Source: a virus
Lineage: Duplodnaviria > Caudoviricetes
Strand: one strand, 5' to 3'
Virus record (IMG/VR): IMGVR_UViG_2634166338_000002
Length of the DNA stretch: 64,000 nucleotides
Part shown: piece after piece, positions 1,557 through 21,180 of the stretch
How the letters are laid out: each line of letters opens with the position of its first letter
Position numbering within the stretch: position 1 is the stretch's first letter
Notes under the pieces: generated by a model
Databases searched by the model: none
What the model saw: only the letters and a program-made list of their open reading frames with translations
What the model was told of the DNA's origin: nothing
Made by a program: the position numbers and the translations under genes

Positions 1557-3449
1557 TCAGATCTGGAGTTCCTTGATCACGGCCGACCACAGCAGCGCGG
1601 GATCCGTGTCGTCGTCCGCGTCCGCATTTCCCGCATCCGTGCTGCTCGCGTCCGGGTGCTGCGCGACCTGCTCGCGCTGGCGGCGGACGAAGCTGTACAG
1701 CCCGTCCCAACCGTCGTGGCCGGGCACGACGTGGCGGGGGTGGTAGTTGTCGCCCGCGTCGATCAACCGAGCGGCTAGGGCGTAGTCACCGGCGGTCACG
1801 GCCTGTAAGACTCGCTCGACCACCGCGTCGGCAGCGGCCGCCCGGTCGAACGCCGCGTCGGGCTCGGGCACGAACCCAGGGTGGTCGATCGGGTTGCACT
1901 CGATGTCTACGCACTTCACGGTGTGCGCGCACACCGCGCAGCAGCCGATCCGGTCCGCCTCCTGTTTCAGCTGCACCCAGGGGCAGGTGAACAGGTGGAA
2001 GCACACCGGGCAGGTCACCCGTGCTGGTTCGAGCCCGTACACGTGGGACGAGGTGTCACCGTCGGGCAGGTCGATCCGGCCACACCAGCACGGGTTGGCG
2101 ATGCCCTGCCGCCCGTTGCCGTGGTCGACCAACCTCACCGTCTCCGCCCGGACATGTCTGCGGCCCTGCGGCGCCGCATGATCAATCAGCGCCAGAGTAG
2201 GCGCGACCGTCTCGGAAGAGGACCCGTCGTGGAGCGCGATCACGTGAGACGGGCCGGGGCAGGTGTCGGGCTCCTCCATGGCCTCCCATTCGTCGCGCGC
2301 CTTCCCGCACAGCGGGCAGAACGGCAGCATGACGTAGCGGCCCCAGTAGTGGCCGCCTGTTCCTGCCTGCGGCCCGAATGCTTCCTGCTGGCATTCGGTG
2401 CACGCGGCCGGGTGCCCGTCGTGACCTTGCTCGCTGTGCCGGTAGGCGGCCACCTGCCTGCGGTAGTCGTACCGACGCCCGTAGCGCGCCCGCGTGTCGT
2501 TCCCGGCCAGGGCGAAACCGCCGTAGGCCGCCGTCCACCATCCGCCCCGACCGTCCGGCCGGTCGAGGAACCGGCTGTTGCCGTCCACGTCGACCACTCG
2601 CAGCGTGGACCCGTCGTTGGTGGACGCCTCGTTGACCTCGACGAGGCCGAATTGCACGTGCTTGACGTTGAACCCGATCGGCGGATGCTTCAACTGCCAC
2701 CAGCCGTTCGCGGCCGGCGCCGCGAGTGTCTGCTCGTCGACGAGGCGCTCGACGGCCTTGATGATCGCCTCGGCGATCTGGTGCTCCCGGGCGTAGCGCT
2801 GCTCCAGAACGCAGGTGTCGCCGACGTAGACGACCGTGTAGGTATCCTGGCATTCCAGCCGTGACGCCCGTGACTCGTACGTCAGCACCCGCACCGGCAG
2901 GATGCCCACGGTGAATCCGATCCCGTCAACGCGGCGCACCGGCGCGCTCGACCAGCCGTTTTCCGCTACCCGGCCCTCCACGACCGGCAGCCCGCTGCCC
3001 CGGCTGACCCGTTCCATCACCTCGCGGGCGTGACTGACCACCCCGTTCTCGGCGGGGTGCTTCTCCGCCGGGACCGATACGACGTGGCGGTCCAACGGGG
3101 TGGTCACCGGCGGGCGGCCCTCGCAGCTCACCAGTTCACATGCCGGGTCGCCGGCGAGGTGCGTGCACCCCTGCGGCTTCGGCGGGATGGTCACCCACGC
3201 CTGGCTCGGCACGTGCCGGACCGGCGAGTGCTTCGGACCTTGCCGGTGTTCCACTGCGGTCTCGTCCACGCCGAAATACGCAGCGATCGCCCGCGTCAGC
3301 GCGCCGGTGTCGGCCCTGCCGCCCACCAGCGGCACTCTCACGTCCGCGACCGCCTGGCCACGGTCCCACGCCTGCCAGCGCACGCTACTGCGGTTGCGGG
3401 TCTCGTCGATCCCGACCTTGACCTGCACCTGTTCCTGCTCCTTCATCAT
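1557..3449 (-). CDS. 630-aa Cys-rich multi-module hypothetical protein
   Basis: Long ORF with GAAGGA RBS and several CxxC motifs; C-terminal GDYxxAxxLIDxG...H...GW module shared with the DnaN fusion. Confidence 0.85.
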   Translation of the reverse strand: MMKEQEQVQVKVGIDETRNRSSVRWQAWDRGQAVADVRVPLVGGRADTGALTRAIAAYFGVDETAVEHRQGPKHSPVRHVPSQAWVTIPPKPQGCTHLAGDPACELVSCEGRPPVTTPLDRHVVSVPAEKHPAENGVVSHAREVMERVSRGSGLPVVEGRVAENGWSSAPVRRVDGIGFTVGILPVRVLTYESRASRLECQDTYTVVYVGDTCVLEQRYAREHQIAEAIIKAVERLVDEQTLAAPAANGWWQLKHPPIGFNVKHVQFGLVEVNEASTNDGSTLRVVDVDGNSRFLDRPDGRGGWWTAAYGGFALAGNDTRARYGRRYDYRRQVAAYRHSEQGHDGHPAACTECQQEAFGPQAGTGGHYWGRYVMLPFCPLCGKARDEWEAMEEPDTCPGPSHVIALHDGSSSETVAPTLALIDHAAPQGRRHVRAETVRLVDHGNGRQGIANPCWCGRIDLPDGDTSSHVYGLEPARVTCPVCFHLFTCPWVQLKQEADRIGCCAVCAHTVKCVDIECNPIDHPGFVPEPDAAFDRAAAADAVVERVLQAVTAGDYALAARLIDAGDNYHPRHVVPGHDGWDGLYSFVRRQREQVAQHPDASSTDAGNADADDDTDPALLWSAVIKELQI

Positions 3450-3544: not shown

Positions 3545-6484
3545 TCAGCCGACGCGGGCCGGAACCACGTCCGGCAGGGCCGTGAGGACGGCCCGGTCGA
3601 CGGTCGCGTTGGCCGCCGTCAGGGCTCCGGCGGTCGCGAACCGGATGCGCAGCCGGTACGGCCGCTCCGCCTTCTCCACCTCGACGCTCGGCATGGCCGC
3701 GATCACGCCGTCCCGCTTGGCGTCGACCAGCCGGTCGAGCACGTCTTTGCGCAGCGCCCTCAACCGGGTTCCGGCCGGAAGCAGCCACACTCGCTCTCCG
3801 CCGGTGGTGCTCGGAGCCGTCATCCCGAACTTCGTCCAGTTCGACGTGCCAGTGGCGGCCGCAGCCGTCCGGGCCGGGGCCGGGCTGGGCACCGCAGCGG
3901 CTGCACGGCGCGGCGCGGGAACGGTGCGCTGCGGCTGCTCCGGCTTAGCGGCCGCCGGGCGGGGTGCCGTCTGCCGCGGCATCGGCGCGGCCGCCGCGGT
4001 AGGTGCTGCCGCCATCGCGGCGGCCACCGCCGCCTCGATCACCTCTTCCGGGTGCCCGGCCAGAGCCTCCCGCAGCCGCTGCGCCACCGGGTTGCCCTCG
4101 ATCGGGGCCGCCTCCTGCTCACGCTCAGCCACCGTCTCCGGCCCGGTCTCCGCGCTGCCGTGCGTAAGCTCGTCGGCGGCGTCCGTCTCCTCGGTGTCGG
4201 CCACCGCCTCGGCGGCGATGTCCGCGAGCGCCTGCTTCTCGGTGTCGGCCGCGATCTCCGCCTCGACCTGCTTCGCCAGGATCGCCTCCTGGATCGTCTC
4301 CCACCCGTAGGTGAGGCCGCCGCCACGGAAGAGGTGGGCGGGGGCGTTCTGCATGCCCAGGTCGATGAGTTCGAGCGCTCCATCGAAGTCGCCCATGCTC
4401 AGCCGGTTGAACGCCTGCAACGACGTCGCCTTCGGGTCGAACTTCGGCTCACCGCCCACGATCACCGGCGCCTGCTCCTGTGCCTTCACCTGCTCGCCTC
4501 CCACCTCGTTCACGGCCGCCGCACCCTGCGGCGGCCACACGCCCTGTGCCGTGTGCGCCGGAATGGACGCCGCGAGAGCGCACAGCTTCATCCGCTCGGC
4601 CTCCTCCGCGCTTCGCACGGCCACGTACATCCGCTTGCCGTCGGGGGTGTCGGCGACCAGCACGCCCGTGGTCGTGTCCTCGCCGAAGACCCGGACCGCC
4701 GTCATTCCCGCTTGCACGGTCGCCTCCGTGACCATCTGCCCGCCGCTGCGGGCGGTCAGCTGAAGGACCGCCATCCACACCGGCCCGGCAGCCAACGCCG
4801 TCTGCTTGGTCTCCTTCGCCGCTGCGGCCCGGCCGCCGTGCACCTTGGCGTTGCGGGTGGTCCCGCAGACACACTTCGTGAACGGGTTGGTCTTCCTGCC
4901 GTCATCGACCGCCCGTTGGAACGGGTGCGGGGTGGTCCGGTCCGGCGCCGCCGCGCTCGGCTTCGGCACGGCGGCGCCCTGCCCGCTGATGTCCGGCTGC
5001 CCGGCCGGTTTCGCCTGCGGCCCGTCGCCCAGCATGGCGGCGCTCTCCTGAGACGCGGAGGCGTCATCGGTCGGCTCGGCCGCCGCCCCCGCCGCGTCTG
5101 CCTCGGCCGTCTCCGGGCCAGTGGTCAGCGCGGGCGGGATCGCGATGCTGTCCTTGGTCTCGCCGATCCGGATGGGCATCTGGAGGTTCGTCACGCCCGG
5201 CAGCGGCTGCCCGTCGCGGTCCAGTGGCACGGCTACGAACGGCTTGTACGGGTCGACGAACCGCAGGCGCACCCGCTTCGACCCGGCGGTCTTGAGCGTG
5301 TCGGCCAGGTAGTCGGGGTTCGCGCCGACGACCATGCCCGCGCCCACCCTCGCCAGCGCATCCGCCGTCTGCTGCCCGGCTTCTGCGACCTTCCGGTCGC
5401 GCACCTCCTTGGGGTCGCGGGAGTGCCTCTTGCGCGCCTGCTTCTCGGCCTCTTTGACCGCTGCCTTCACGGCCGCAGCAGTTTCCTTCGGTGTGCCCGT
5501 GACGAACGTGAAGTCGGAGAACGTCTCGCTCGCGGCCCCGTCCTCGTCGGTGCCGCCACCGACGGTGAATGTGTCCGGCCCGAACTCCATCAGCACCGGC
5601 AGCGCCCGGGTGAGAGCGACCTGCACCCGCTCGATGGTGCTGATGAGCGAGGCCACGTCCACGTCGACGTCGAGGACGAACGCTTTCGGCACCAGCGACG
5701 CCACCGGCGGGTAGGTGCCCCCGTCGAGCGTGCGTGTCACCACTCGCATGGTCGCGTTCTCGATGCCGAACCAGCCCGCACCGGGGCCCTTGGGGTCGTA
5801 CCCGAGCGTGACGTTGGGGCTCTGGCCGATCGTCTTGGTGACCTCCGTGAGCAGCTTCGCAGGCACCAGGGCGGTGAACTTGTCGACGTCGTTGGCCCAG
5901 TCGAGGTCCCGTACGGTCACCCGGTAACGGTCGGTGGCGACCAGGTGCAGGGTCGTGCCCTCACCACGCAGGTGGATGCCGGTCAGCGACGGCAGCGTCT
6001 CGTCGGTGCCCGCGAATCTGGTCGCCTGTGCAACCTGGTCGGCCAGCGCCTTGCCGTCGACCAGGCCCATCAGGGGCGGCATGTCCGGCCGGGTCGGGTA
6101 GTCCTCGACCGGCATCGTCGGCAGCGTGTATGTGGTCTTGCCATTGGACAGCCGTGCCTGCACACCCTCGCCGGCGAACGCGATGGGACGGTCCTTGGCG
6201 AGCACCTTCACCCGTGTGAGCAGGTTGGCCGCGCTCACCAGCACCGTGCCGGGCTGCGTGCACGTCGCGCCGGGGAGCGTGACCGTCCGCGACTGGTCGT
6301 AGTCGAACGCCTCGATCGTGACGGTCTCGCCGTCGCTGGTCAGGATCACGCCCGCGAGGACGGGAACCGGCGGCTTCTTCGGGATGGCCCTGCCCACGAA
6401 CGTGAGCGCGGCCAGCAGTTCTGGCTGCGGAACGACGAACGTCAGGTGGCCCTCCACGGGCGCCTGATTGTCGGTGGTGGACAT
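3545..6484 (-). CDS. dnaN: DNA polymerase III beta sliding clamp fused to a C-terminal extension of about 540 aa
   Basis: Beta-clamp motifs: PVPVLAGV, AFDYD, LPTMPVEDYP, LPSLTGI, VATDRYR, YP, NPDYL, MPIR. Confidence 0.92.
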   Translation of the reverse strand: MSTTDNQAPVEGHLTFVVPQPELLAALTFVGRAIPKKPPVPVLAGVILTSDGETVTIEAFDYDQSRTVTLPGATCTQPGTVLVSAANLLTRVKVLAKDRPIAFAGEGVQARLSNGKTTYTLPTMPVEDYPTRPDMPPLMGLVDGKALADQVAQATRFAGTDETLPSLTGIHLRGEGTTLHLVATDRYRVTVRDLDWANDVDKFTALVPAKLLTEVTKTIGQSPNVTLGYDPKGPGAGWFGIENATMRVVTRTLDGGTYPPVASLVPKAFVLDVDVDVASLISTIERVQVALTRALPVLMEFGPDTFTVGGGTDEDGAASETFSDFTFVTGTPKETAAAVKAAVKEAEKQARKRHSRDPKEVRDRKVAEAGQQTADALARVGAGMVVGANPDYLADTLKTAGSKRVRLRFVDPYKPFVAVPLDRDGQPLPGVTNLQMPIRIGETKDSIAIPPALTTGPETAEADAAGAAAEPTDDASASQESAAMLGDGPQAKPAGQPDISGQGAAVPKPSAAAPDRTTPHPFQRAVDDGRKTNPFTKCVCGTTRNAKVHGGRAAAAKETKQTALAAGPVWMAVLQLTARSGGQMVTEATVQAGMTAVRVFGEDTTTGVLVADTPDGKRMYVAVRSAEEAERMKLCALAASIPAHTAQGVWPPQGAAAVNEVGGEQVKAQEQAPVIVGGEPKFDPKATSLQAFNRLSMGDFDGALELIDLGMQNAPAHLFRGGGLTYGWETIQEAILAKQVEAEIAADTEKQALADIAAEAVADTEETDAADELTHGSAETGPETVAEREQEAAPIEGNPVAQRLREALAGHPEEVIEAAVAAAMAAAPTAAAAPMPRQTAPRPAAAKPEQPQRTVPAPRRAAAAVPSPAPARTAAAATGTSNWTKFGMTAPSTTGGERVWLLPAGTRLRALRKDVLDRLVDAKRDGVIAAMPSVEVEKAERPYRLRIRFATAGALTAANATVDRAVLTALPDVVPARVG

Positions 6485-6487
6485 GGT

Positions 6488-6620
6488 TGGGGAACCTCCA
6501 GATGGGTTGCGCCCGGCCGTGCCTGACCGGGCGGAACGGGATGTCGAGCGGGTTGGCCCGGCACCACTCGACGACCACCGGCCCGCACACGGGCCGGTTG
6601 TCGCCGGGCAGCGCCGGTCA
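6488..6620 (-). repeat. Intergenic leader repeat copy 1 (stop codon, two hairpins, RBS)
   Basis: Near-identical to 7205-7333; partial copy at 7765-7820. Confidence 0.9.
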
Positions 6621-7205
6621 GTGGTGTCGGGCGTGCAGGACCAGTTGCCGGTCGGGCAGGGCCAGCACCTTCGCGAAGTCGCAGGTGGGTGTGCCTTTCA
6701 CACGGATGCCCGAGCAGCCGTGGTGGCGACAGGCGTACGAGGTGAACTGGCAGTCGCAGCTGCGGTTCACGCACGTCTCGCAGCGGCCTGCCATCGCTCG
6801 AATCGCGGCCGTGTAGGTGCCCAGGCCGGGCGCGGGCAGCCATTCGCCGTCGAGGGCGAAGCCGCAGTGCCGTGCCAGGTCGACCTCGGCGCGGGTGAAG
6901 ACGTCCGTCATGTCGAAGCGCCCACGCCTGCGGATGACCGCGTTCATGTCGATGCGCCGCCGGTCGATCGCGTCGCCGCTGCCGATCTCCAGACTGGGTT
7001 CGATGCGGCCGCCGGTGCGCCGACGAAGCAGACGGGCGGCCCTGCGGGCGGCGGCGGGCAGCAGCGTCCCCGGCCGTTGCGATTCGGCGACCAGACGGGC
7101 CAGGTCGACTCGCACTCGCCACGTGAAAGAGCCGATCTCCAGGTGCAGGAGATCCAGGGTGCCCGTGTCGAGGAGGGCGTACATCTGCTCGGGTGTGTCG
7201 TTCAT
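6618..7205 (-). CDS. Hypothetical protein with C-terminal Cys cluster
   Basis: GGAGG RBS, ATG at 7205; GRCETCV..C.C...C.H.GC motif shared with 7331-7765. Confidence 0.8.
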   Translation of the reverse strand: MNDTPEQMYALLDTGTLDLLHLEIGSFTWRVRVDLARLVAESQRPGTLLPAAARRAARLLRRRTGGRIEPSLEIGSGDAIDRRRIDMNAVIRRRGRFDMTDVFTRAEVDLARHCGFALDGEWLPAPGLGTYTAAIRAMAGRCETCVNRSCDCQFTSYACRHHGCSGIRVKGTPTCDFAKVLALPDRQLVLHARHH

Positions 7206-7333
7206 GGGGAACCTCCAGATGCTCACGCCCGGCCGTGCCTGGCTGGGCGGAACGGGATACCGAACGGCTGTCCGGCACCACTCGACGACCGCCGGCCCGT
7301 GCGGGGCCGGTTGTCGCCGGGCAGCGCCGGTCA
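7205..7333 (-). repeat. Intergenic leader repeat copy 2
   Basis: Direct repeat of 6488-6620. Confidence 0.9.
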
Positions 7334-7765
7334 GCGGCGACTCCGGTTTCGCGGGATCGCGGTGAGCACCGCGACGCCGGGGCAGGTGTTCGCTCGGTCC
7401 GGGGTCCGCTGGCCCCGACATCCGAGGTGCTCGCAGCCGTCGCTTCCGGCCCGGCATTCGCAGCGGGACACACACGTCTCGCAGCGGCCCGGCATCTCCG
7501 CGATCGGGACCGTGAATGCGTTCCGGTCCGTGCTCGTCCGCGCCCAGCTGCCGGTCGGCGCGTAGCCGGTCTTGCGGCGCAGCAGCCGGACCGCCTCGGT
7601 GGCGACCGCGCTCACCAGCGAGCCCCGGCTGCGGGTGATCACGCGGGCGAGGTCGACGCGGAACTGCACGGTGGCGAAGCCGACGGTCACGTGCAGGCAC
7701 GGGTCGGTGTGTGGGTTGGTCAGGGTGGCCGTCCAGGCGTGGGCGGACACGGTGGCGCTGATCAT
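7331..7765 (-). CDS. Hypothetical protein with C-terminal Cys cluster (paralog)
   Basis: AGGAGG RBS, ATG at 7765; FRVDLAR...RLLRRKTGY.PTGSWA...GRCETCV. Confidence 0.8.
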   Translation of the reverse strand: MISATVSAHAWTATLTNPHTDPCLHVTVGFATVQFRVDLARVITRSRGSLVSAVATEAVRLLRRKTGYAPTGSWARTSTDRNAFTVPIAEMPGRCETCVSRCECRAGSDGCEHLGCRGQRTPDRANTCPGVAVLTAIPRNRSRR

Positions 7766-7886
7766 GGGGAACCTCCTGATGATGTGGCGACGCCCCTCAG
7801 CCGTGCCTGGCCGAGGGGCGATTCGTGCGGGTGGGTGAGAGTCGGAAACCGTCACGCGCCTGCCGCGTGAGTTCCGCTCGGCTCTC

Positions 7887-7948
7887 TGTCCGGAACGTCT
7901 GGACAAGAGCAGGGCAGGGATCAAATCACAAAACACCCAACGTGTCAA
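7887..7948 (-). promoter_or_regulatory. Leftward promoter (-35 TTGACA at 7948-7943) with operator copy 2 (7887-7905) downstream
   Basis: TTGACA on the minus strand; TGTCCGGAACGTCTGGACA lies just past the expected +1; -10 element weak. Confidence 0.55.
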
Positions 7949-8235
7949 ATCTAGGTTCCAATCCGCGCATACGCGCGCAACCCGCCCACACGCGCCGCGC
8001 GCGTACATGGGCACGCCGGCGACGCCCTCACGCGCGCCCGCCGCACGCGCACCGCAGTCACGCGCGTGGACGCAAGGGTGCGCGTGGCTGATGACCAGCG
8101 GGTTCCACTCGCGCGCCTAAGCGATGCGCCGCGCGGGCACCAGTGCGACGCGCTCCACGGGCGCGCCCGCGAGCACGGCAGCGCACGCAGGCACCTCGCG
8201 CGAGCGCGCAAGACGCGCCCACCCGAGTGAATGAA

Positions 8236-8489
8236 CGCACCGGCACGCGCGCGCGACCGCCTGAGAGGCTCGGAGACGGCCGTGCACGCCTGTCCGGAAC
8301 GCCTGGACGTCAGGATGCGCGTGCGGCCCCCACGGACGCCCTGAGGCGGTCGCGCACACCTGCCGGGATCGGCCGAGCACACCGGCACGCACGCGACCGC
8401 CCGAGAAGCTCAGGGCAACCGTTCGCGCCTGCCCGGAGCCTGGACGTCAGGATGCGCGTGCGGCCCTCACGGACGCTCTGAGGCAGTCG
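8236..8489. repeat. Two imperfect tandem copies of a unit of about 115 bp in non-coding DNA
   Basis: About 8236-8352 vs 8377-8489: caccggcacgc...cgcgaccgc..gaga...cctggacgtcaggatgcgcgtgcggccc.cacggacgc.ctgaggc. Each copy holds a variant of the 19-bp operator. Confidence 0.85.
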
Positions 8490-8504
8490 TGCCCCACAAT
8501 CGGA

Positions 8505-8544
8505 CACGAAAAAGGGCGTGCCCCCGTACGGGAGCACGCCCTTT
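8505..8544 (-). terminator. Intrinsic terminator after the 8597-9421 gene
   Basis: Stem aaagggcgtg...cacgcccttt followed by a T run on the minus strand. Confidence 0.7.
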
Positions 8545-8596
8545 GCGCGCTTGCGAGTGTGGGGGTACGCGCCGTGACACGTACCCCGATCGGCCG

Positions 8597-9421
8597 TTAG
8601 GCGACGCTGGCCACTGCCGCGATCATCACGGCGTCAACGTCGGTGGACACCGCCCCGCCGTCGTGGCCGTAGGCGACCAACGTGCGCCCCTCTTTGCGGA
8701 CGCTCACGCCCTTGACCTTCGCCCGCGACAGCGCCTGCCGCGCGGCCTTTGCCGCAGCCGCGATGGGCACACCAGCCGCAACCGTGAGCACGCGCTCACC
8801 CTCACTGGTCACGGCCACGCCACCCGCCGTGGCCTTGCGGGTAGCGGGCTTCACCGCAGCCGGGACGGGCTTCGCCGTCGCGCCCCTGCGGGTGGCGGGC
8901 TTCGCCGTCGCGGTCTTCGCCAGCGTATTCGCCTTAGCGACCGCCGCAGCGACCGCCGCAGCGATGATCTCGGCGTCGACCCCATCCGCGACTAGTGCCG
9001 CCGTAATCGTCTCCGCCAGCGTCGCGCCGGTGACGGGCTGCACCGCAGCCGGGGCGGGCTTCGCGGCCGCCCTGCGGGTGGCGGGATTCGCCGCAGCCGT
9101 CGCACCCTTGCGGGTGGCGGGCTTCGCGATCGCGGGCTTCGCCGCCGCGCCCGTCAAGTCGATCACGTCGACGCCGTGCTCAGCGAGCGTCATGATCACG
9201 TCATCGGCCGTGAACGCGCTGTCGGTGGTGGGCACCCAACCGCCGTTGTCGCGGTCCCACTCCCAACCGAAGCCGTGGCGGTTCATGAGCCGACGTGCCT
9301 GCCCGGGCTTCCCGTCCTCGCGGAGCCCATCGATCATCCACGGGAGGCCGGTCAGGATGGGCTGGCCGTCCGCTCGCAGGGCGAGGGTCGTGATCTTCGC
9401 GGTGGTGGTGGTTGCAGCCAT
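8597..9421 (-). CDS. Ala/Lys-rich histone H1-like repeat protein with C-terminal domain shared with the DnaN extension
   Basis: GGGAGG RBS, ATG at 9421; repeats of AKPATRKGATA; C-terminal GERV...AG...AK..GV module. Confidence 0.8.
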   Translation of the reverse strand: MAATTTTAKITTLALRADGQPILTGLPWMIDGLREDGKPGQARRLMNRHGFGWEWDRDNGGWVPTTDSAFTADDVIMTLAEHGVDVIDLTGAAAKPAIAKPATRKGATAAANPATRRAAAKPAPAAVQPVTGATLAETITAALVADGVDAEIIAAAVAAAVAKANTLAKTATAKPATRRGATAKPVPAAVKPATRKATAGGVAVTSEGERVLTVAAGVPIAAAAKAARQALSRAKVKGVSVRKEGRTLVAYGHDGGAVSTDVDAVMIAAVASVA

Positions 9422-9511: not shown

Positions 9512-9806
9512 GCCCTAGGCGGCTAATTTGTGACTCACGACACAACAAAATGCGGGCAAAGGTGTACCAAAGGTGAGGCTCGCGTATAGGCCTACGCGTA
9601 CGTAGGGGCGGGGGTGCCCCTGCCCCCGCGTGTACGGGTGCCGCCCGGAAGGTTCGGCATCCCGCCGTCCGGACGGGATAGAAAACTTTGAGACCCGAAA
9701 TTTTCGGGGTCAACGTGTCGCCCCGGTGGCGATCGCTAAGCGGAGACGGTTCGGGCCGGGCATTTTTCGTTCGCGGACGCTCGTCCTAGAGTGCTCCAAT
9801 AGCGGT

Positions 9807-11501
9807 GTGAACCTTGACCTTGGTGGCGAGCAGCGGTCGGAAGAGCCTGGCGGTCAGGCCGATCGACGAGAAACTGACGTTGACTTCCCGCTTCTGATTC
9901 ATGTGCTCGGCGAGCCCTTCGTCAAGTGGATCCTGGTGGCACCGTTTGAGTTGCCCTCGCCGGGACAGCTTGAGGTGGCGGCAGCACTGACGCGCTTCGT
10001 TCGTGAAGGCAGTGCTGATCATTCCGGCCGGTCGGCAGACCTCGTGGGTATGCGTCTGTCGTTCTACGTGCCTGCGTGGAACGCGACGTTCGTCGAGGGC
10101 TTGCGTCAGCGTGCTGGCGGACAGCCGGCTGAGGCTGAGGCTTCCGAGGACGATCTGCAGAATGCTGTCGTCGACCTGGCGGCGCAGAGTTATGGGCAAC
10201 TGCTTCTGCCTGCAGGGTTCACCGGTCCTTCGCTGTCTGCCAACCTGATGTCGCCGGCTGGTGCTCGGGTCGTGGCCGCGGTCCGGGCCGACGGCATCTT
10301 TCCCGGCGCTGACGACGACTGGGGGTCGGAGTCAATAGTCCTCGGAACAACTCTGGGGACCGCGCAGGGGCAACAGGCTGCCATCTTCGGTAACCACGTT
10401 CTGCTGGCGGCTTGGGATGCGGTGAGGCTCCGGGTTGAGGGCCCGACTTTAGAAGAGTATCTATCCGCAGTGCGGCAGATGCTGACTCAAACCCGTGCAC
10501 TCTTGCGTGGGGAGGAGGTGCTCGTCCCGTCCCTTGTGGGTTTCACCGGCATCGTCGTTGATCAGGATGTCGAGGTTGTCGGATCTTGGGGCCGACTCCG
10601 CTCCGCTCGTCCGAGCGACCTCCCCTCTTTCGCGAGCAGCATGTCCGAGCGGCGCATCAACACGACTACCGAAACGGGTGAGCACATCGAGATCACCGAC
10701 GCCGGTGATGTCGTCCTGGAGACCCGCATCCCTTACCGAGTTCGAATCCAGTCCCCTGACGAAATGATCATGGAGGGAACGACCACGGTCGGCCTGGAGG
10801 CATTAGTTGAGCAGGCCCGAATCTGCTTGGCGTTGTCCTGGGATGGGGATCAGATACCCGTCGTGTTGCCGACCTGGCGCCGCACGATCTCCTTCATGAC
10901 CTCGAGTATCGGCTACTGGACCGATCCGCAGCACTCGGCACCAAGACATCCCACCAAGGCAACGCGGGCCCAGATGGATGCATGGGGCTCCTGGCTCGGC
11001 ACTGTGGACACGGAAGCGTTGTCTCATGTCAGGCTTGCCGCAACCAGGACGTTACGCGCACTAACTGAACGACGTGTTCAGGACGACATGCTGATCGATG
11101 CAGTGATCGCCTGGGAATCGCTGTTCGGAGCCAAGACCGAGAGCACTCTTCGCGTATCCGGCGCCCTGGCCTGTCTTCTCTACCCGCCGGGGGCAGACAG
11201 AGAAGCCGCCCAGAAGAGATACAGCAAGATCTACAACTCGCGGAGCGAGATCGTACATGCGAGTCTTACCAAGAAGACGACGCCGGAGGTCATCGCTGAG
11301 AACGCCCGAGAGGCGGCCCAGGTTGCCATCCGGGCACTACGGGCGATCCTTGACACTCGACGCGACCTGATCACCCTCGACAGCGCCAGTCGCGGTCTTC
11401 AGCTACTGCTTGAGGGCTCTTTTCCGCAAGCGGCGGACGCCGAGACTCTGACGTCCGAAGCCGCCTCCGGCGATGGCTCCGCGATTGATGCCAACGGGTG
11501 A
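9807..11501 (+). CDS. HEPN-domain protein (ApeA-like), putative defence RNase
   Basis: C-terminal LIDAVIAWESLFG...IYNSRSEIVH with RxxxxH motif. Start uncertain (frame open from 9630). Confidence 0.75.
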   Translation: MNLDLGGEQRSEEPGGQADRRETDVDFPLLIHVLGEPFVKWILVAPFELPSPGQLEVAAALTRFVREGSADHSGRSADLVGMRLSFYVPAWNATFVEGLRQRAGGQPAEAEASEDDLQNAVVDLAAQSYGQLLLPAGFTGPSLSANLMSPAGARVVAAVRADGIFPGADDDWGSESIVLGTTLGTAQGQQAAIFGNHVLLAAWDAVRLRVEGPTLEEYLSAVRQMLTQTRALLRGEEVLVPSLVGFTGIVVDQDVEVVGSWGRLRSARPSDLPSFASSMSERRINTTTETGEHIEITDAGDVVLETRIPYRVRIQSPDEMIMEGTTTVGLEALVEQARICLALSWDGDQIPVVLPTWRRTISFMTSSIGYWTDPQHSAPRHPTKATRAQMDAWGSWLGTVDTEALSHVRLAATRTLRALTERRVQDDMLIDAVIAWESLFGAKTESTLRVSGALACLLYPPGADREAAQKRYSKIYNSRSEIVHASLTKKTTPEVIAENAREAAQVAIRALRAILDTRRDLITLDSASRGLQLLLEGSFPQAADAETLTSEAASGDGSAIDANG

Positions 11502-11630
11502 ATGTTTTCCGACCGCCATCGCTCCGCTTCGCTGCTGACCGACAGGCGGAGCGAGACTGAGATCGTGCCGGTCCCGGCTGCTGCACGGCCGACGTGGCGC
11601 CGGAGTCGACTGATGGCAGAGGATGGTCGG

Positions 11631-12110
11631 ATGACTCCCAGGATGATCTTCGCAGGAATAGCCATTTGTGCTCTGGTGGCCGGCTGCGGCGGTCAGACCG
11701 ACGCCGCCGATGGCACACGCTCTGCCGCTGCGGGCGAGACTTCGGTTCCGGCGGCCGGTACTGCCGCCAGTTCCGACACGGCATCACCCACTGCCGTCGC
11801 CGTCGATGCGCAGAACGAGTTGAAGGCCGCGGTTCAGGCTTACAGCGACGCCTTTCTTACCGGCGACCCGAAGGCGGCCTACGAACTGCTGTCGCAGCGG
11901 TGTCGGAAGCGGCACTCGCTGGCCGAGTTCACCTCCATCGTCAGCGCGGCCGAGCAGATGTACGGCAGTGCGCTGCCGATTGAGACCTTCTCGGCGCAGG
12001 TGTCGGGAGATCTGGCCAGAGTGACGTATACCTACTCGGTCAAGGCGATCAATCAAGATTCTGAGCCCTGGGCCCGCGAGCAGGAGAGTTGGCGCCAGGA
12101 CGATTGCTGA
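11631..12110 (+). CDS. Lipoprotein with NTF2-like domain
   Basis: Signal peptide with LVAGC lipobox; AV.AY..AF..GD...AYELLS pattern. Confidence 0.75.
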   Translation: MTPRMIFAGIAICALVAGCGGQTDAADGTRSAAAGETSVPAAGTAASSDTASPTAVAVDAQNELKAAVQAYSDAFLTGDPKAAYELLSQRCRKRHSLAEFTSIVSAAEQMYGSALPIETFSAQVSGDLARVTYTYSVKAINQDSEPWAREQESWRQDDC

Positions 12111-12243
12111 TCGCCTGAGGTCGGACGACACCTTCCTCGCCAAGCCGTTCACCGCTGACGAACTGGCCGGCACGATCCGCACCCTCCCCGCCGCTGGCGC
12201 TCGCCGGCACCTCACGCGATGGCGGTACCCGGCGGTCTGTGCG

Positions 12244-12432
12244 TCAAGCGATCAGGGCCGCCACCGCGACCGCGAGGCCTAGAGCCGCACCAGAGGCTGA
12301 ACCGCCGACCAACACCGCGCGGGCCAAGCGGGAATCGTCCAGCCACGACAACCAGCCAGCGACAGCGCCGACTACCACCGCTGCAAGCACCGCCACCGCA
12401 ACGTACAACCCGACAACCGTGAGCTTGTCCAC
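12244..12432 (-). CDS. Small two-TM membrane protein
   Basis: Two hydrophobic segments; GTG at 12432. Confidence 0.5.
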   Translation of the reverse strand: MDKLTVVGLYVAVAVLAAVVVGAVAGWLSWLDDSRLARAVLVGGSASGAALGLAVAVAALIA

Positions 12433-12668
12433 CGAGGATCGTCCTCTTTCGTTTGCCCGTCGGCCCGGCATCGCGCCGGGCCTGTTCCCTACGGGCATGG
12501 CCAAAGGCTCCAGTACCGCCAGCCCCAGAACAAACGGCCTTCTGACCGATCAGCCGCGCCTCGGACTCGTGAAGCCGCAGGTCACAGGACTGGCCATTCT
12601 CTCCGACGCAGCCTTTACAGCCACGAACTTCTTGGTGCGGCTGATCGGTCACGATAACTTCTTCACCC

Positions 12669-13655
12669 GTGAACATCCGTGATCGGAAACGCCATCGCGC
12701 CCGCGCCACCACGCTGCTCACCCACGCGAAGGCGTACGACCACGCGCAGGCCCGACTGCACCAGATCCACCACGCCGGCGGGCAAACGCCCCAGCGCTAC
12801 CTGATCCGCCGAGCCCTCGTCCGGGCCCGCACCCCAGCTGCGGACCGACCTGTGGTGGCCTCACCGGCCGCGGCACTCGCCCCGATGAAAGGCTGGGCCC
12901 TGCACCTGTACCTGATCGCGATCTTCGAGGCACAAGCCCGGCTCACACCCGCCTTCGCCGTCAACAACGACAGACCGCTGCTGTACGGCACCCGCCAGGC
13001 GGCCGCCTGGGTCGACCTGCTCCCCACCATCACCGACACCGTCCCCCGTTCGGCAGGAATGCGACGCCAACTCGTCCGTGCCCTGGCCTTGCTCCACCGC
13101 GAACACCTGGTCGGCCTCCGCAGCCGCATCGGCGCACGAGGCAGGTACGAACGCTTCGAGCTTCGCCATGAGGACGGTGAATCTTGGTCGCCCGTCTACA
13201 CCATCCCGCGAGGCGACTCCACCAGCGCCAGCGAGCCGCTCTGGATCCGGCCACCAGGACCCGTCGCCGGACGCACCGCGGTCGTCGCGCTTCCCGCCAC
13301 CTTCTTCCTCAACGGGTGGGCGCACGTGCTGTCCGCCGCGGAGATCACCACCTACCTGATGCTCTGCGATCTTGAAGCCCGCTACCCGCAAGCTCGTGCC
13401 GGCGGGGTGTACCTGACCGATCCCCAGCGAGAGGCCTGGTATGGCATCCACCGCGACGTGTACGCCACCCACCGGCAACTATCCGCATTCGGGCTCATCG
13501 AACGCCTCGACGACCCGGACCGGCGCCCGGACGGAACGATCACCCGCGGAGCCGGCCAGCAGATGCGGCAACCATATCGATTCCGAACACTGCCCCAGGG
13601 CTTCAGCCAACCGGCACGAATCACCGTGGCCCACCACCTCACCGAACACCAATGA
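12669..13655 (+). CDS. Hypothetical protein, possibly frameshifted at its 5' end
   Basis: 328-aa ORF; the upstream frame from ATG at 12497 joins it if one C at 12666-12668 is removed. Confidence 0.65.
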   Translation: MNIRDRKRHRARATTLLTHAKAYDHAQARLHQIHHAGGQTPQRYLIRRALVRARTPAADRPVVASPAAALAPMKGWALHLYLIAIFEAQARLTPAFAVNNDRPLLYGTRQAAAWVDLLPTITDTVPRSAGMRRQLVRALALLHREHLVGLRSRIGARGRYERFELRHEDGESWSPVYTIPRGDSTSASEPLWIRPPGPVAGRTAVVALPATFFLNGWAHVLSAAEITTYLMLCDLEARYPQARAGGVYLTDPQREAWYGIHRDVYATHRQLSAFGLIERLDDPDRRPDGTITRGAGQQMRQPYRFRTLPQGFSQPARITVAHHLTEHQ

Positions 13656-13879
13656 CAGACGCCTGGACTGCTGGTACGGAACTCAAAAACGATGCTGACG
13701 TTGACGGCCGGTTCGGGTGGGTCCTTCCGCTTGAGTGCGGTGGCCGTGTTTCGATCCTCATGCCCGGGTCTGATCTTGCGGCGATCCGGGACGATCCCTC
13801 CGCGCTGACATACTGCGTCCGGGTCCGTGGGTGCTGGTGGTGGTGGCGTGATGCCATCGGCATGGCTATTCCGCTCTAG
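13652..13879 (+). CDS. Small hypothetical protein
   Basis: ATGA overlap with the previous stop; protein-like composition. Confidence 0.55.
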   Translation: MTDAWTAGTELKNDADVDGRFGWVLPLECGGRVSILMPGSDLAAIRDDPSALTYCVRVRGCWWWWRDAIGMAIPL

Positions 13880-14242
13880 CCTGGCCGATGGGAACCAAAG
13901 TGTTAGCGGTTCCTGAGGCAACTCGATGCGGCGGGTGGTGCGTGGTCGGCGGCCCATGGCGTCTCGGAAATCTTCGAGGTCAGAGTGATCAGGTGCCCAA
14001 CGCTCTCATGAAGGCCCAGATCTTGCTAAACGGATTAATGCAAATATTGCTGTTGGGCCTCGCACTAGACGCTTTAACCAGCAATTAGATAACACGGTCG
14101 ACGAAACCTGTATACCCACTAGAGTTCCCGCCAGGACCTGCGGCTAACAGGTGTACTCATGTTGCCCGCTGGCTGGCTCGTGAGTGCGGCCGAAAGGGCG
14201 ACCGTCCGATCGGCGACGACTGCAAGCAATCGGAGGTAATCG

Positions 14243-15088
14243 GTGTCGCGATCGAACCAGGCCACGTGGCGATGTGCTTTCTGCGGCAATCCGGGTTCCA
14301 AGTCGGCTGAGCATGTCCTGCCGCAATGGCTGCGGGCCGGTACGGCGCCGTTGCCCATGCAGCGCACCTCCTATTGGACCGGATTCGGGTTACGAGACGA
14401 CAAACAGGCTTACGCAAGCGTGGACCCGGCGGTTCGGGAATCGCGGAACTCCATGCTCCACCAGACCACGCGCGCTGTCTGCGTGAGCTGCAACAACGGT
14501 TGGATGAGCCGCCTCGAAACGAAGGTGAAGCCCATCATGGAGTCGCTGTTTCACTCGCGACGAACCGGCAACACGTTGACCCTACCGCCGGCCGAAGCCT
14601 CGACTCTTGCTCGCTGGGCAGTAAAGACGTCCTGGACAGCAGAGCTGTCTGGTCTGGGCAATCAGAACCAAGATCAGACCTGGCTCTCTCCGCACGCTTT
14701 GAAGCAGTTCGCCTCGCGCGATGTGCCGCCAACTGTGTCCTGGGTCTGGCTCGCCTCTCATCAGGATCTCGACCGGGTCGAGCAGATGCAGGCCCATGTC
14801 GCGATTGACCGGACCAGCCCGCCTGCTCCCGGAGAGGCTGCTCGGCGTCTGCATGCCAGTGCCCTGGTCATCAACGGCATCGTCCTGGTCGTCTACAACT
14901 TCGAAAGCCGCGAGCACTTCCCGCCACCGTTCCGCCCCATGCACGGACTGCGGCTCTGGCCCCGTCCCACAGCGGTGGAGTTTCCGCCCCCTGAGGTAAG
15001 CCATCAGGAGGTCACCGGAGCGATCGCGCACTACGGGCACTGGTTTCCGCTGCACAACCGCGCTTTCGACCACAGCACGCGCATCTGA
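14243..15088 (+). CDS. HNH-like Zn-finger nuclease domain protein
   Basis: CAFC...EHVLPQW...VCVSCNNGWM; GGAGG RBS. Confidence 0.7.
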   Translation: MSRSNQATWRCAFCGNPGSKSAEHVLPQWLRAGTAPLPMQRTSYWTGFGLRDDKQAYASVDPAVRESRNSMLHQTTRAVCVSCNNGWMSRLETKVKPIMESLFHSRRTGNTLTLPPAEASTLARWAVKTSWTAELSGLGNQNQDQTWLSPHALKQFASRDVPPTVSWVWLASHQDLDRVEQMQAHVAIDRTSPPAPGEAARRLHASALVINGIVLVVYNFESREHFPPPFRPMHGLRLWPRPTAVEFPPPEVSHQEVTGAIAHYGHWFPLHNRAFDHSTRI

Positions 15089-15150
15089 TCGACGGAGCCG
15101 TCGCGGTTCACCCCCGGCCGGCGCCAGATGGTGCACTAGGCTGCCCGGCC

Positions 15151-15735
15151 ATGACCTCCGCGTTGGCCGTCGCCGCGTTGTTTATCAGTCTCGTGGCTTT
15201 GGCGGTTGCATGGTGGAACGGCAACTCCGCCCGCCGGTCGGCAGACGCCGCCGAGGGGGCACAGCAGGCCGCAGATCGATCTGCCGACGCCGCGAAGGAC
15301 TCTGCCGAAGCAGCGCGGCAGGTCGCCTCGGCGGAACTCGAACGCGATCACGAGTCGTACCGCCCCGACCTTAGTCAGGCGAAGTTCGCCTATCCGCGTA
15401 GTCGGCCGAAGCCGCCTTTCGAGTACACCTTCGTGCCGTCACGGCGCTACCGGCTGCGGGCGTACGCCGGGAAGGCGGGGGAGCCCATGCGTGACCTGAC
15501 CGATGGCAACTTCCGAGCCATCACCTCGGGTGTTTCGGTATCGATCGCGGCTGCCGAGGCCGGAGCCGAGGCGCATCCGGATTTTCTCCTTCTGCAGTTT
15601 TGGCCGCCCGCGCCCGCAGCCGGGGAGGAAGTGTGGATGTGCCCGTGCGGCCGGCCGACTGAGCCGTCGGAGCAACCGCATTGGGATATGCGCGTTGAGG
15701 TGCCGCGGAAGCGGGGCAAGGTGGTGGTGTTCTGA
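15151..15735 (+). CDS. Membrane-anchored hypothetical protein
   Basis: N-terminal TM helix followed by SA..AA repeats. Confidence 0.65.
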   Translation: MTSALAVAALFISLVALAVAWWNGNSARRSADAAEGAQQAADRSADAAKDSAEAARQVASAELERDHESYRPDLSQAKFAYPRSRPKPPFEYTFVPSRRYRLRAYAGKAGEPMRDLTDGNFRAITSGVSVSIAAAEAGAEAHPDFLLLQFWPPAPAAGEEVWMCPCGRPTEPSEQPHWDMRVEVPRKRGKVVVF

Positions 15736-15815
15736 TGTCCTCTGCGGCAGTAATCACCTCCCATCTCTTACTAGTTAAGCCGTGGAGCGCCCGACGAGTT
15801 GGGCATCACGGTTCG

Positions 15816-16349
15816 CTACCGGCCGGGCGGAGTGAGCCTGGACTGCTGATCCGGAGCCTGCGGGTCGATCACGGTCAACCCGACCTGGGCGAAGCCCTCG
15901 ACACTCGCTTCGGAGTCCTCGTCGGTCCACCAGCGGGCGATGGCGTCGCGCAGCGCATGGTCGGCGACCGGAGAGAGTCGGCCGACGTACTCAAGGAGTT
16001 CTTTCTCGTCGACGTCCCACTTGCGGCCGTACGACGCGAGGTCGGGCACGGGGGTGTCGCGGGCGATCGTGAACCCGTCGGCCAGGGACATATACACCGT
16101 GCCACCGAGTGTCGCGTCGATCGCCGTGCCGGTGAGGACGTCGGCGATGCAGGACGCCTGCGCGACGGTGAGCCGGATCCGGCGTAGCTCCAGGGCCAGC
16201 GCGGAGCGCCAAAGGCCTAACTCAATCACTGCTTGCTGGTGGTGACTGGGTGTGAACATGCGTTCGGTCCGGCCTTTGAGCCAGGCCGCGGTTTCAGGGT
16301 TGCTGATACGTGCCTGGATGCGGTTGTCAGGCTGCTTGTCGTCGACCAT
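15816..16349 (-). CDS. Hypothetical protein, possible DNA-binding regulator
   Basis: AAAGGA RBS; 177-aa ORF downstream of 16428-17198. Confidence 0.7.
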   Translation of the reverse strand: MVDDKQPDNRIQARISNPETAAWLKGRTERMFTPSHHQQAVIELGLWRSALALELRRIRLTVAQASCIADVLTGTAIDATLGGTVYMSLADGFTIARDTPVPDLASYGRKWDVDEKELLEYVGRLSPVADHALRDAIARWWTDEDSEASVEGFAQVGLTVIDPQAPDQQSRLTPPGR

Positions 16350-16427
16350 CTCAGTCAGTTCCTTTCAGGCCGTTAAATCGTTTAGGCAACGGGTCTCGGG
16401 TGCGAGCATTCGGGAGCGGACGGCGAG

Positions 16428-17198: not shown

Positions 17199-17262
17199 GG
17201 TCCTCTCCAGCTTCATCAGGAGGTTCTTGAGGTTGCGCGATCGGAGGGGATCAAGCAACACC

Positions 17263-17293
17263 ATCGTATGACATAAGTCTACATTCGTCTACA
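17263..17293 (-). promoter_or_regulatory. Promoter TAGACG-N17-TACGAT overlapped by a TGTAGAC direct repeat
   Basis: GTCTACA at 17277-17283 and 17287-17293. Confidence 0.55.
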
Positions 17294-17598
17294 GCTGTAC
17301 TCGACTGGAGGGCGTGGCGGCGCTGATCGGCACGACGTACCGCGATGAGGTTGAGCGTGCTGATCCCCAACCGCGTGGGGCGGCGCGGATGCGAGTCGGG
17401 CGGTCGCCCCGCGGAGGGCTTTTGCGGAGGTCGTGCGATGTACGTCGGCGCCCCGGCTGGCGCTGGCCGGCGTGGGCTTATGTCGGGTGCCGTGGAGGTC
17501 GAGGGGGATGACCGGGCGCCGCTCCCACGTCAGAGCTCGTAGCTCGGGATTTACTCAGGCGTCTCCGGTCACCCTCCTCGGCCTCCGCAGTGATCCTG

Positions 17599-18843: not shown

Positions 18844-18849
18844 GCAGGT

Positions 18850-19105
18850 CTCCTATCCCGGGCACGGTGGGGTGGCTTCAGCCGAACCGCCGAGATGACG
18901 CGGATCGCCGCCGAATACGACTGAACTCACCGCTGCCGGCGAAGTGCCGGTGGGAGTCATGTCGTGCGGCAGCAGGCCGCTGTTACTCGGGCAGCTGCTG
19001 AAGTGAGCACCCCCGCGTGGGCGGGGAAGAGGAGCACCGTGACCGACAGCTCGGTAGGTCACGGCAGGGACCGCTGTTCTGTGGAAGAACGCTCTCGTCC
19101 GATAT
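18850..19105 (-). ncRNA. Candidate IS110 bridge/seek RNA region
   Basis: Hairpin-rich non-coding region 5' of the IS110 gene, preceded by a -10-like TACAGT at 19113-19108. Confidence 0.45.
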
Positions 19106-21173: not shown

Positions 21174-21180
21174 CGTAGAA

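What the first reader, a model, noticed from the sequence alone, without database searches (positions are those of the whole stretch)
3560..9010. DnaN C-terminus mirrors the C-terminal half of the H1-like protein
Seen: both proteins end with [helix: EALAGHPEEVIEAAVAAAMA / AALVADGVDAEIIAAAVAAAVA] - [Ala/Pro/basic linker] - [GERVWLLPAG...LVDAKRDGV...TVDRAVLTALPDV / GERVLTVAAG...LSRAKVKGV...DVDAVMIAAVASV]. Inference: the first gene of the arm (8597-9421, with AKPATRK DNA-binding-type repeats) and the clamp share an assembly domain. Together with the previous module this suggests a multi-protein complex that coats or protects incoming phage DNA and is tethered by a clamp. I know of no description of such a system.
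Basis: partly seen in the sequence, partly recalled or inferred. Interest (0 to 1): 0.7.

Follow-up and report, generated by a model that had tools for sequence, protein, structure and literature searches.

The report
Shared tail module in prophage clamp
Two proteins encoded 2 kb apart in the early operon of an Actinoplanes-type prophage, a sliding-clamp fusion and the operon's unannotated first protein, end in the same undescribed C-terminal module (about 140-180 residues), but what that module binds is not known.

Summary
The 979-aa clamp fusion (3545-6484, minus) and the 274-aa first early protein (8597-9421, minus) both end in the same three parts. These are an Ala-rich helical hairpin, a disordered A/P-rich linker of net positive charge, and a small beta-beta-alpha-beta-beta-alpha domain.

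Pairwise methods do not detect the likeness (BLASTP E>6; six-frame genome searches find nothing). Family profiles do. hhalign of the two tails gives probability 97.5%, E 5e-12 over 140 columns. Column-shuffled controls score 11-13 (max 22) against the observed 77, and real decoy profiles from the same prophages score 11-20. A bridging protein in another Micromonosporaceae genome matches both families. AlphaFold2 gives both C-domains the same order of elements. So the similarity is not Ala-rich composition.

The gene order (first protein, small Cys protein, clamp fusion, 630-aa protein) recurs in a second Actinoplanes prophage.

"H1-like" is not supported.

Best reading: a duplicated or shuffled targeting module that brings both proteins to one site or partner.

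No note on other DNA in this scan turned up in a sequence look-up with the 274-aa protein.

The parts
3545..6484 (-). Gene of the 979-aa sliding-clamp fusion (P0001): DnaN domains I-III in residues 15-435, then a tail of about 540 aa.
   Evidence: Pfam PF00712, PF02767 and PF02768. TIGR00663 dnan scores 173.5 bits against a cut-off of 137.65. GC3 is 0.91. Nine full-length homologues were found.
4091..4249 (-). Acidic disordered linker just before the shared module (net charge -14 here; -13 or -14 in 8 of 9 family members, -5 in the ninth).
   Evidence: Composition table. AF2 pLDDT below 50 for residues 755-797.
4010..4090 (-). Clamp fusion, shared module part 1: Ala-rich helical hairpin (residues 799-825; helices 799-807 and 813-825).
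   Evidence: AF2 secondary structure. hhalign of the hairpin alone scores 33.1, P 7e-8, with 0 of 150 permutations reaching it. Conserved in all 9 family members.
3851..4009 (-). Clamp fusion, shared module part 2: disordered A/P-rich linker, net charge +6 (+3 to +9 across the family), sequence not conserved.
3548..3850 (-). Clamp fusion, shared module part 3: C-terminal domain (residues 879-979). After a short helix the order is beta-beta-alpha-beta-beta-alpha. It has nine invariant Arg/Lys.
   Evidence: AF2 elements E892-894, E897-902, H908-924, E933-937, E943-948, H952-973, with pLDDT 74-90. Invariant columns. hhalign of the C-domain scores 31.5, P 1.1e-5. Full-length co-linear alignment.
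8597..9421 (-). Gene of the 274-aa first early protein (P0002), with no annotated family.
   Evidence: GC3 is 0.87 in this frame. Eleven homologues found by exhaustive phmmer share the M-T-T-T-T type start. No hit in Pfam, PHROGs, NCBIfam or PADLOC.
9131..9394 (-). P0002 N-terminal globular domain (residues 10-97), family-specific and not shared with the clamp fusion.
   Evidence: AF2 pLDDT above 90. Conserved in A2. The only lead is a predicted-structure likeness to DUF3560 and the XPB DRD domain, TM 0.52-0.58.
9020..9130 (-). P0002 basic A/P/K/R linker 1. Residues 91-129 as tabulated have net charge +7 (the part drawn here is residues 98-134). It contains the AKPATRK-type strings.
8906..9019 (-). 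P0002, shared module part 1: Ala-rich helical hairpin (residues 135-172; helices 135-145 and 150-172).
8825..8905 (-). P0002, shared module part 2: basic disordered linker (net charge +7).
8600..8824 (-). P0002, shared module part 3: C-terminal beta-beta-alpha-beta-beta-alpha domain (residues 200-274).
   Evidence: AF2 elements E202-204, E210-213, H220-233, E239-244, E247-252, H261-273, with pLDDT above 90. hhalign results. Joint alignment A3.

Best explanation
The clamp fusion and the first early protein carry paralogous copies of one undescribed C-terminal module. The module is a helical hairpin, a flexible positively charged linker, and a small two-layer alpha/beta domain ordered beta-beta-alpha-beta-beta-alpha. 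It was duplicated or shuffled between two genes of the same early operon in a narrow lineage of Micromonosporaceae prophages.

Shown: homology of the module, its conserved three-part layout in both families, and the conserved gene neighbourhood.

Inferred: the module acts as a flexible targeting or tethering device that takes two different 'heads' to the same place. One head is a DnaN-type ring. The other is the 90-residue N-domain of the first early protein. The place is either a common protein partner or the phage DNA itself. The principle resembles T7 gp2.5 and gp4, or the T4 clamp partners, which reuse one C-terminal element to dock on one hub.

I put the homology at about 0.9. Given homology, I split the function as follows: about 0.5 for a shared target, about 0.2 for direct co-assembly of the two proteins, and the rest for shuffling without a functional link or for something not listed here.
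For: Profile-profile similarity far above composition-matched and real decoy controls.

The two conserved segments match independently and in the same order at the very C-terminus of both proteins.

Cross-family HMMs put their best hit at the right position: the C-domain in 8 of 9 clamp fusions and the hairpin in 8 of 9.

A bridging protein links the families. This is G030, L117:9002-9811, which belongs to the P0002 family (48.7 bits). The clamp C-domain HMM hits it at 14.6 bits (P 1.4e-6; E 9.7e-4 among 639 ORFs of related loci). The clamp hairpin HMM hits it at 9.7 bits. It also shares the longer loop of the clamp-type domain.

The two AF2 models have the same order of secondary-structure elements.

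The linker between hairpin and domain has net positive charge in every member of both families.

Synteny: P0002-like gene, small Cys protein, clamp fusion and 630-aa protein occur in the same order in Actinoplanes sp. NPDC049118 at 42-52% identity.

In 401 family genomes the joint C-domain profile finds two copies in each of the two genomes that hold the clamp fusion, one in G030, and otherwise only one marginal chance-level hit.
Against: No pairwise or profile-to-sequence search at genome scale finds the relationship, and the family profiles are shallow (9-13 sequences, Neff 2-2.7).

The surfaces have diverged. The Arg-rich positions that are invariant in the clamp type are Ala, Pro or Ile in P0002. 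This argues against an identical ligand bound in the same way.

Three P0002-family members lack the C-domain. G030 has a P0002-like protein but no clamp fusion was found there (that genome is 96% complete, in 230 contigs). So the two proteins are not strictly interdependent.

The fold is generic, with best Z 7.0, so it gives no functional clue.

Co-occurrence rests on only two genomes.
Confidence: 0.6

Rival explanations
1. Heterotypic assembly domain. The modules of the two proteins bind each other, or form mixed oligomers, so the first early protein is physically tethered to the phage clamp and a clamp-anchored complex forms on phage DNA.
For: The module is shared and the operon layout is conserved. 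Small beta-beta-alpha-beta-beta-alpha domains such as PCD/DCoH dimerise through their sheets (established knowledge); the C-domain resembles that fold only at Z 6.3-6.5. The hairpin is too short to be a stable fold on its own, which suggests it packs against a partner (inference).
Against: No binding test could be run. P0002-like proteins occur without the C-domain. In G030 one occurs with no clamp fusion found. The exposed residues differ strongly between the two types.
Confidence: 0.15
2. Homologous but functionally unlinked. The module is a leftover of ordinary phage mosaicism (domain duplication or shuffling), and each copy now does something different.
For: Identity is low, about 23-30% in the C-domain, and the charged surface positions have diverged. 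The module is dispensable in some P0002-family members.
Against: The three-part layout, including the sign of the linker charge, is kept in both families over 42-54% within-family divergence. The hairpin is the best conserved stretch between the families.
Confidence: 0.15
3. Chance or compositional resemblance of two Ala-rich tails in a 70% G+C genome.
For: BLASTP, six-frame searches and genome-scale HMM searches are all negative. In the window's own six-frame set a non-coding frame scores as high as P0002 against the first clamp C-domain HMM.
Against: hhalign scores 77.5 against at most 22.3 in 120 composition-preserving permutations, and 11-20 for real decoy profiles of the same composition. 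There is a bridging sequence, and the AF2 models have the same order of elements.
Confidence: 0.07

Closest known systems
Bacterial and phage beta sliding clamp (DnaN; TIGR00663; Pfam PF00712/PF02767/PF02768; PHROG 947)
   Same: Residues 15-435 of the 979-aa protein match all three clamp domains above the curated thresholds. They are about 35% identical to the chromosomal DnaN of Micromonosporaceae.
   Different: It carries a tail of about 540 aa, seen in only about ten proteins out of 5.8 billion clusters. That tail ends in the module shared with the first early protein. Prophage clamps in IMG/VR lack this tail.
Shared C-terminal docking elements of phage replisome proteins (T7 gp2.5 and gp4 acidic tails; C-terminal clamp-binding peptides of T4 gp43, gp33 and gp55)
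   Same: The principle is the same: different proteins of one phage reuse one C-terminal element on a flexible linker to reach one hub. This is stated from established knowledge, not from a test here.
   Different: Those elements are short peptides. This one is a 140-180-residue module with a folded domain, and one copy sits on the clamp itself. No partner is known.
PCD/DCoH-like and ACT-like two-layer alpha/beta sandwiches
   Same: The C-domain has the same beta-beta-alpha-beta-beta-alpha order as PCD/DCoH. VIA-align gives Z 6.5 (2ebb) and 6.3 (1uso), and Z 6.5 to the aspartokinase ACT region. There is a weak Pfam ACT hit in 2 of 12 members, E 0.018.
   Different: The scores lie inside the noise band the tool states (typical best Z 7-8). 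There is no sequence relationship and no ligand or active-site motif. Gyrase/ParC, KA1 and secretin N-domains score equally.
Histone H1-like or HU-tail Lys/Ala/Pro repeats of actinobacteria
   Same: The linkers are A/P-rich with scattered K/R and a net charge of +4 to +9.
   Different: K+R is only 0.13-0.25. The repeat strings are not conserved between homologues. There is no substantial tandem DNA repeat and no H1/H5 or HU domain.

Membership tests
DnaN beta sliding clamp (clamp fusion, residues 15-435) | Three consecutive clamp domains recognised by the family models above curated thresholds | tested here: met
   PF00712 98.2 bits, PF02767 51.7 bits, PF02768 36.1 bits. TIGR00663 173.5 bits against a cut-off of 137.65.
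DnaN beta sliding clamp (clamp fusion, residues 15-435) | Head-to-tail dimeric ring that encircles DNA and binds partners in a hydrophobic pocket | not testable with these tools
   The AF2 monomer shows the three-domain beta/alpha pattern. No oligomer prediction or assay was possible.
Histone H1-like / basic-repeat DNA-binding protein (P0002) | Globular winged-helix H1/H5 domain, or an HU/IHF core | tested here: not met
   No Pfam family at E<=10 of that kind in any of the 12 members. The AF2 N-domain is mixed beta/alpha.
Histone H1-like / basic-repeat DNA-binding protein (P0002) | Lys-rich (over 25-40%) tandem AKKA/PAKK-type repeats conserved in the family | tested here: not met
   K+R is 0.13-0.25 and the linker sequences are not conserved. 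The only tandem repeats in the gene are a 12-nt unit repeated 2.4 times and a 15-nt unit repeated 2.2 times.
PCD/DCoH fold (C-domain) | beta-beta-alpha-beta-beta-alpha two-layer sandwich that superposes on PCD/DCoH | tested here: inconclusive
   The order of elements is the same. Z 6.3-6.5, rmsd 2.8-2.9 A over 70-72 residues, which is within the noise band.
ACT domain (C-domain) | Match to the Pfam ACT models above the gathering score | tested here: not met
   Best E 0.018, in 2 of 12 members; none for P0002 itself.
DUF3560 / XPB damage-recognition domain (N-domain of P0002) | Sequence or profile match to PF12083 or PF18458 | tested here: inconclusive
   Atlas predicted-structure likeness, TM 0.52-0.58. 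No Pfam hit. hhalign of A2 against the prophage's own DUF3560 protein gives P 0.45. The N-domain was not folded and searched on its own.
New module family (hairpin, basic linker, beta-beta-alpha-beta-beta-alpha domain) defined here | Both conserved segments present, co-linear, at the C-terminus, and detected by the joint profile | tested here: met
   Both window proteins are hit: joint C-domain profile A3 gives 117 and 83 bits; hhalign of the tails gives E 5.3e-12.

The most novel reading that the evidence does not exclude
The module is a dedicated hetero-assembly or tethering device. Through it the first protein made from the incoming prophage genome is hooked onto a phage-encoded sliding clamp whose tail is a string of docking modules. 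The result would be a mobile, clamp-anchored protein platform on phage DNA, for protection from host nucleases or for marking phage DNA for its own modification and replication enzymes. No such system has been described.
Probability: 0.1. Interest if true: 0.8.

Novelty: new variant of a known kind. Interest (0 to 1): 0.45.

Why it matters
Phage-encoded sliding clamps are usually treated as plain processivity factors. Here a clamp carries a tail of about 540 residues, and the last part of that tail is paralogous to the C-terminus of the first early protein of the same operon. This gives a concrete, testable handle for asking what a clamp with a tail recruits, or is recruited to, in a temperate actinophage. 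The handle is a 140-180-residue module with two well-folded, expressible pieces.

The case also shows a real domain relationship in a 70% G+C genome that pairwise searches miss completely and that only family profiles plus a bridging sequence reveal. The family is very small and confined to Micromonosporaceae prophages, so its general importance is limited unless the mechanism turns out to be new.

Tried and rejected
Searches that did not detect the relationship or any relatives:
- BLASTP of the two proteins: nothing significant.
- Megablast of the region and tblastn of P0002 against 50,697 phage records: no match.
- First word-index search with P0002: swamped by low-complexity words, found only itself.
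- Six-frame searches of the genome with either C-domain, and HMM searches of all six-frame ORFs: the counterpart was not found.

Searches for more genomic context:
- The search for related loci with a single tail, or with A2, failed.
- P0019's genome is not in the collection.
- Metagenome loci L124 and L125, and genome locus L204, end before the neighbouring gene could be seen.
- One family-wide genome search failed on the server. Its repeat found no further clamp tails in 300 genomes under a stricter first look.

Fold and family searches that gave nothing specific:
- Foldseek against PDB and BFVD: nothing at E<=0.001. The top BFVD row was MotA at E 0.029.
- VIA-align wide: best Z 7.0, generic sandwiches.
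- ESM Atlas on the clamp tail: nothing usable.
- PDB sequence search with A2: no hit.
- PADLOC: no hit.
- DUF3560 lead for the N-domain: no profile support.

Other:
- A marginal hit of the joint C-domain profile in G285 (E 9.6e-4, 30 residues) lies in what, by its sequence motifs (my reading; no family scan was run), looks like the N-terminal strand-helix of a kinase-like anti-sigma factor. I treated it as chance.
- Literature search on clamp extensions in prophages found nothing relevant.
Full report
SETTING

The window is G000:C1:7696640-7760639 of a single-contig 10.65-Mb genome of the family Micromonosporaceae; by its closest relatives it is probably an Actinoplanes, though no tool named the genus. 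G+C is about 70%.

The window lies inside a large prophage:
- Small and large terminase, portal, major capsid protein E and a 1760-aa tape-measure-size gene lie on the plus strand from about 23.4 to 62 kb.
- An early arm runs on the minus strand from about 9.4 kb leftwards.
- Beyond the window that arm continues with DNA methylases, a Mom-like protein, a DpdA fusion, a DUF3560 protein and an integrase.

The two proteins of the finding are:
- P0001, 979 aa (3545-6484, minus).
- P0002, 274 aa (8597-9421, minus). It is the first gene of the early arm.

In two related elements (L117, L204) the P0002-like gene lies 1-2 kb from a homologue of window gene 22240-22809, in divergent orientation. That gene precedes the terminase genes. 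So about 9.6-22 kb of the window, including an IS110 transposase, looks like inserted cargo.

THE TWO PROTEINS

P0001 is a true DnaN-type clamp in residues 15-435. It matches all three Pfam clamp domains, TIGR00663 above its cut-off, and PHROG 947. A tail of about 540 residues follows.

Nine full-length homologues were found (P0003-P0010 and P0024; 42-54% identical to P0001 for P0003-P0010). They come from Actinoplanes isolates and soil metagenomes, and all keep the whole tail.

The last 180 residues of the tail are, in order:
- a strongly acidic linker (net -14; -13 or -14 in 8 of 9 members, -5 in the ninth);
- a conserved Ala-rich hairpin;
- a non-conserved A/P-rich linker of net +3 to +9;
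- a highly conserved C-terminal domain with nine invariant Arg/Lys.

P0002 has no hit in Pfam, PHROGs, NCBIfam or PADLOC. Exhaustive phmmer over 1.84 billion representatives found 11 relatives. All are 'hypothetical', from Actinoplanes, Micromonospora and metagenomes.

Their alignment shows:
- a 90-residue N-domain;
- a basic linker;
- a conserved hairpin;
- a second basic linker;
- a C-domain, which three members lack.

No clamp fusion appeared among the phmmer hits.

IS THE RESEMBLANCE REAL?

Pairwise and profile-to-sequence methods say no.
- BLASTP finds nothing significant.
- A shuffle test on the C-domains gives only p about 0.004 over 35 residues.
- Six-frame searches of the genome with either C-domain, and family HMMs against all 113,427 six-frame ORFs, do not retrieve the counterpart.
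- In the window's own ORF set a non-coding frame scores as well as P0002.

Profile against profile the picture changes.
- hhalign of the complete family alignments picks, out of 1000 columns of the clamp family, exactly the hairpin-to-C-domain stretch: probability 93.7%, E 1.9e-7.
- Cut apart, the hairpin scores 33.1 (P 7e-8, 29 columns) and the C-domain 31.5 (P 1.1e-5, 41 columns). With relaxed settings the C-domain alignment extends co-linearly over 70 columns to the last helix.
- None of 150 column permutations of either template exceeds 18.6.

A search of 401 Micromonosporaceae genomes with the P0002 family profile turned up a distant member in G030 (L117:9002-9811).
- It belongs to the P0002 family: C-domain HMM 48.7 bits.
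- The clamp-family C-domain HMM also hits it: 14.6 bits, P 1.4e-6, and E 9.7e-4 as the only non-clamp hit among 639 ORFs of related loci.
- The clamp-family hairpin HMM hits it at 9.7 bits, both at the right positions.
- It also has the Arg-rich helix and the longer loop of the clamp type.

With this bridge and P0024 added, tail against tail gives probability 97.5%, E 5.3e-12, score 77.5, 140 columns. Controls:
- reversed: 10.7;
- full permutation: 11.0+-2.6, max 22.3;
- permutation within 15-column blocks, which preserves regional composition and order: 13.1+-2.5, max 20.5;
- real profiles of equal composition from the same prophages (the rest of the clamp fusion, the P0002 N-half, the 630-aa family): 11-20.

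Cross-family HMMs place their best domain at the corresponding position in 8 of 9 clamp fusions, for both the C-domain and the hairpin.

STRUCTURE

AlphaFold2 with the family alignments gives confident models of both C-domains: pLDDT above 90 in P0002 and 74-90 in P0001. The order of elements is the same in both.
- P0002: strands 202-204 and 210-213, helix 220-233, strands 239-244 and 247-252, helix 261-273.
- P0001: strands 892-894 and 897-902, helix 908-924, strands 933-937 and 943-948, helix 952-973.

In both proteins the domain is preceded by a two-helix hairpin and a linker of pLDDT below 50. I could not superpose the two models directly.

Fold searches give nothing specific.
- Foldseek against PDB and BFVD finds nothing at E<=0.001.
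- VIA-align against 48,161 chains has a best Z of 7.0. Gyrase/ParC, KA1, PCD/DCoH, ACT, secretin N-domains and BMC domains are all tied inside the tool's stated noise band.

The domain is a generic two-layer alpha/beta sandwich with the PCD/DCoH order of elements. No function follows from that.

CONTEXT AND DISTRIBUTION

In Actinoplanes sp. NPDC049118 (G366, contig of 302,785 bp) the same order is found at 42-63% identity: P0002-like gene, small Cys-rich protein, clamp fusion, 630-aa protein, further small proteins.

The 630-aa gene follows the clamp fusion in all four loci where the downstream side is visible.

The joint C-domain profile (A3), searched in 401 family genomes, gave these hits:
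- two copies in each of the two genomes that hold the clamp fusion;
- one copy in G030;
- one marginal chance-level hit in G285, and nothing in the other genomes searched.

G030 has no clamp fusion that I could find, but that genome is fragmented.

The clamp-type C-domain occurs in no architecture other than the clamp fusion among proteins longer than 175 aa, at word-index sensitivity.

WHAT IT MOST LIKELY IS

Shown: one module, two copies, in two genes of one conserved early operon. The three-part layout, including the sign of the linker charge, is conserved.

Inferred: a flexible targeting or tethering module that brings two different heads to one target.

Points that shape this reading:
- The hairpin is the best conserved part between the families. 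It is kept even in P0002-family members that lack the C-domain, so it may be the key contact element.
- The clamp-type C-domain is Arg-rich and the linkers are basic, which is compatible with nucleic-acid binding.
- P0002's own C-domain has replaced most of those Arg residues, so an identical ligand bound in the same way is unlikely.

The 'H1-like' label fails its defining features.

NOVELTY

Neither family nor the module is annotated anywhere I could search. No paper on clamp fusions of this kind was found. A sequence look-up with P0002 in this scan's notes found no look-alike on other DNA.

The idea that phage replisome proteins reuse a C-terminal docking element is known from T7 and T4 (established knowledge). 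I therefore rate this as a new variant of a known kind. It is narrow in distribution and of moderate interest, with a small chance of being something more unusual.

Noticed in passing
window 1557-3449 (-) and 4280-4425 (-); L116:6533-8470, L124:3648-5279, L125:4608-6701: A 630-aa Cys-rich protein with no known family follows the clamp fusion in all four loci where the downstream side is visible. Its C-terminus and the clamp tail share a GD[FY]..A..LI..G...P.H...GW stretch. Support is weak: BLASTP E 0.11 and hhalign P 0.015, although it is the top hit and falls at the right place.
   Followed up: partly
L117 (G030 C130), L204, L124, L125; window 7950-8596: Four independent short-read contigs break within 0.45-1.1 kb of the P0002-like gene's 3' end or the clamp gene's 5' side. 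In the window that position holds the repeat-rich non-coding tract, including a 137-bp unit repeated 1.8 times at 8238-8489. A repeat that defeats assembly may be a conserved feature of these prophages. No DNA similarity to the window tract was found in the short contig ends.
   Followed up: partly
P0015 and P0020 (alignment A2, columns about 270-303): Two P0002-family members replace the C-domain with a different, mutually similar C-terminus (L..L.GAEL...G......AEI.RRA.RRAAKRA). It looks like a helix-extended-helix (SAP/HeH-like) motif followed by a basic helix. If so, that hints at DNA binding as the role of this end of the protein. No Pfam support.
   Followed up: no
window 9131-9394 (-); L211:1174-3111 (-): The ESM Atlas model of P0002's N-domain resembles DUF3560 and the XPB damage-recognition domain (TM 0.52-0.58). 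The same prophage encodes a true DUF3560 protein of 645 aa (PF12083, E 1e-23). Profile comparison finds no sequence relationship (P 0.45).
   Followed up: partly
window 9630-22000: In L117 and L204 the P0002-like gene lies 1-2 kb from, and divergent to, a homologue of window gene 22240-22809, the gene before the small terminase. In the window about 12 kb lies between them. That stretch has lower G+C (0.63-0.69) and holds an IS110-family transposase (17599-18843), a DUF4440 protein and a 623-aa protein with a weak PHROG hit. It looks like inserted cargo.
   Followed up: partly
window 6618-7130 (-) and 7331-7780 (-); L116:11673-12119 and 5814-6191: Two paralogous small Cys-rich proteins (shared RCETCV..C.C motif) lie between P0002 and the clamp fusion. 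The related prophage in G366 also has two copies, one of them 63% identical.
   Followed up: no
window 4900-5000 (-), clamp fusion residues about 515-550: The clamp tail contains an invariant H..F...C.CG...A.VH pattern (H520, C538, C540, H549 in all 9 homologues). This may be a small zinc knuckle, in a stretch that AF2 models with low confidence.
   Followed up: no
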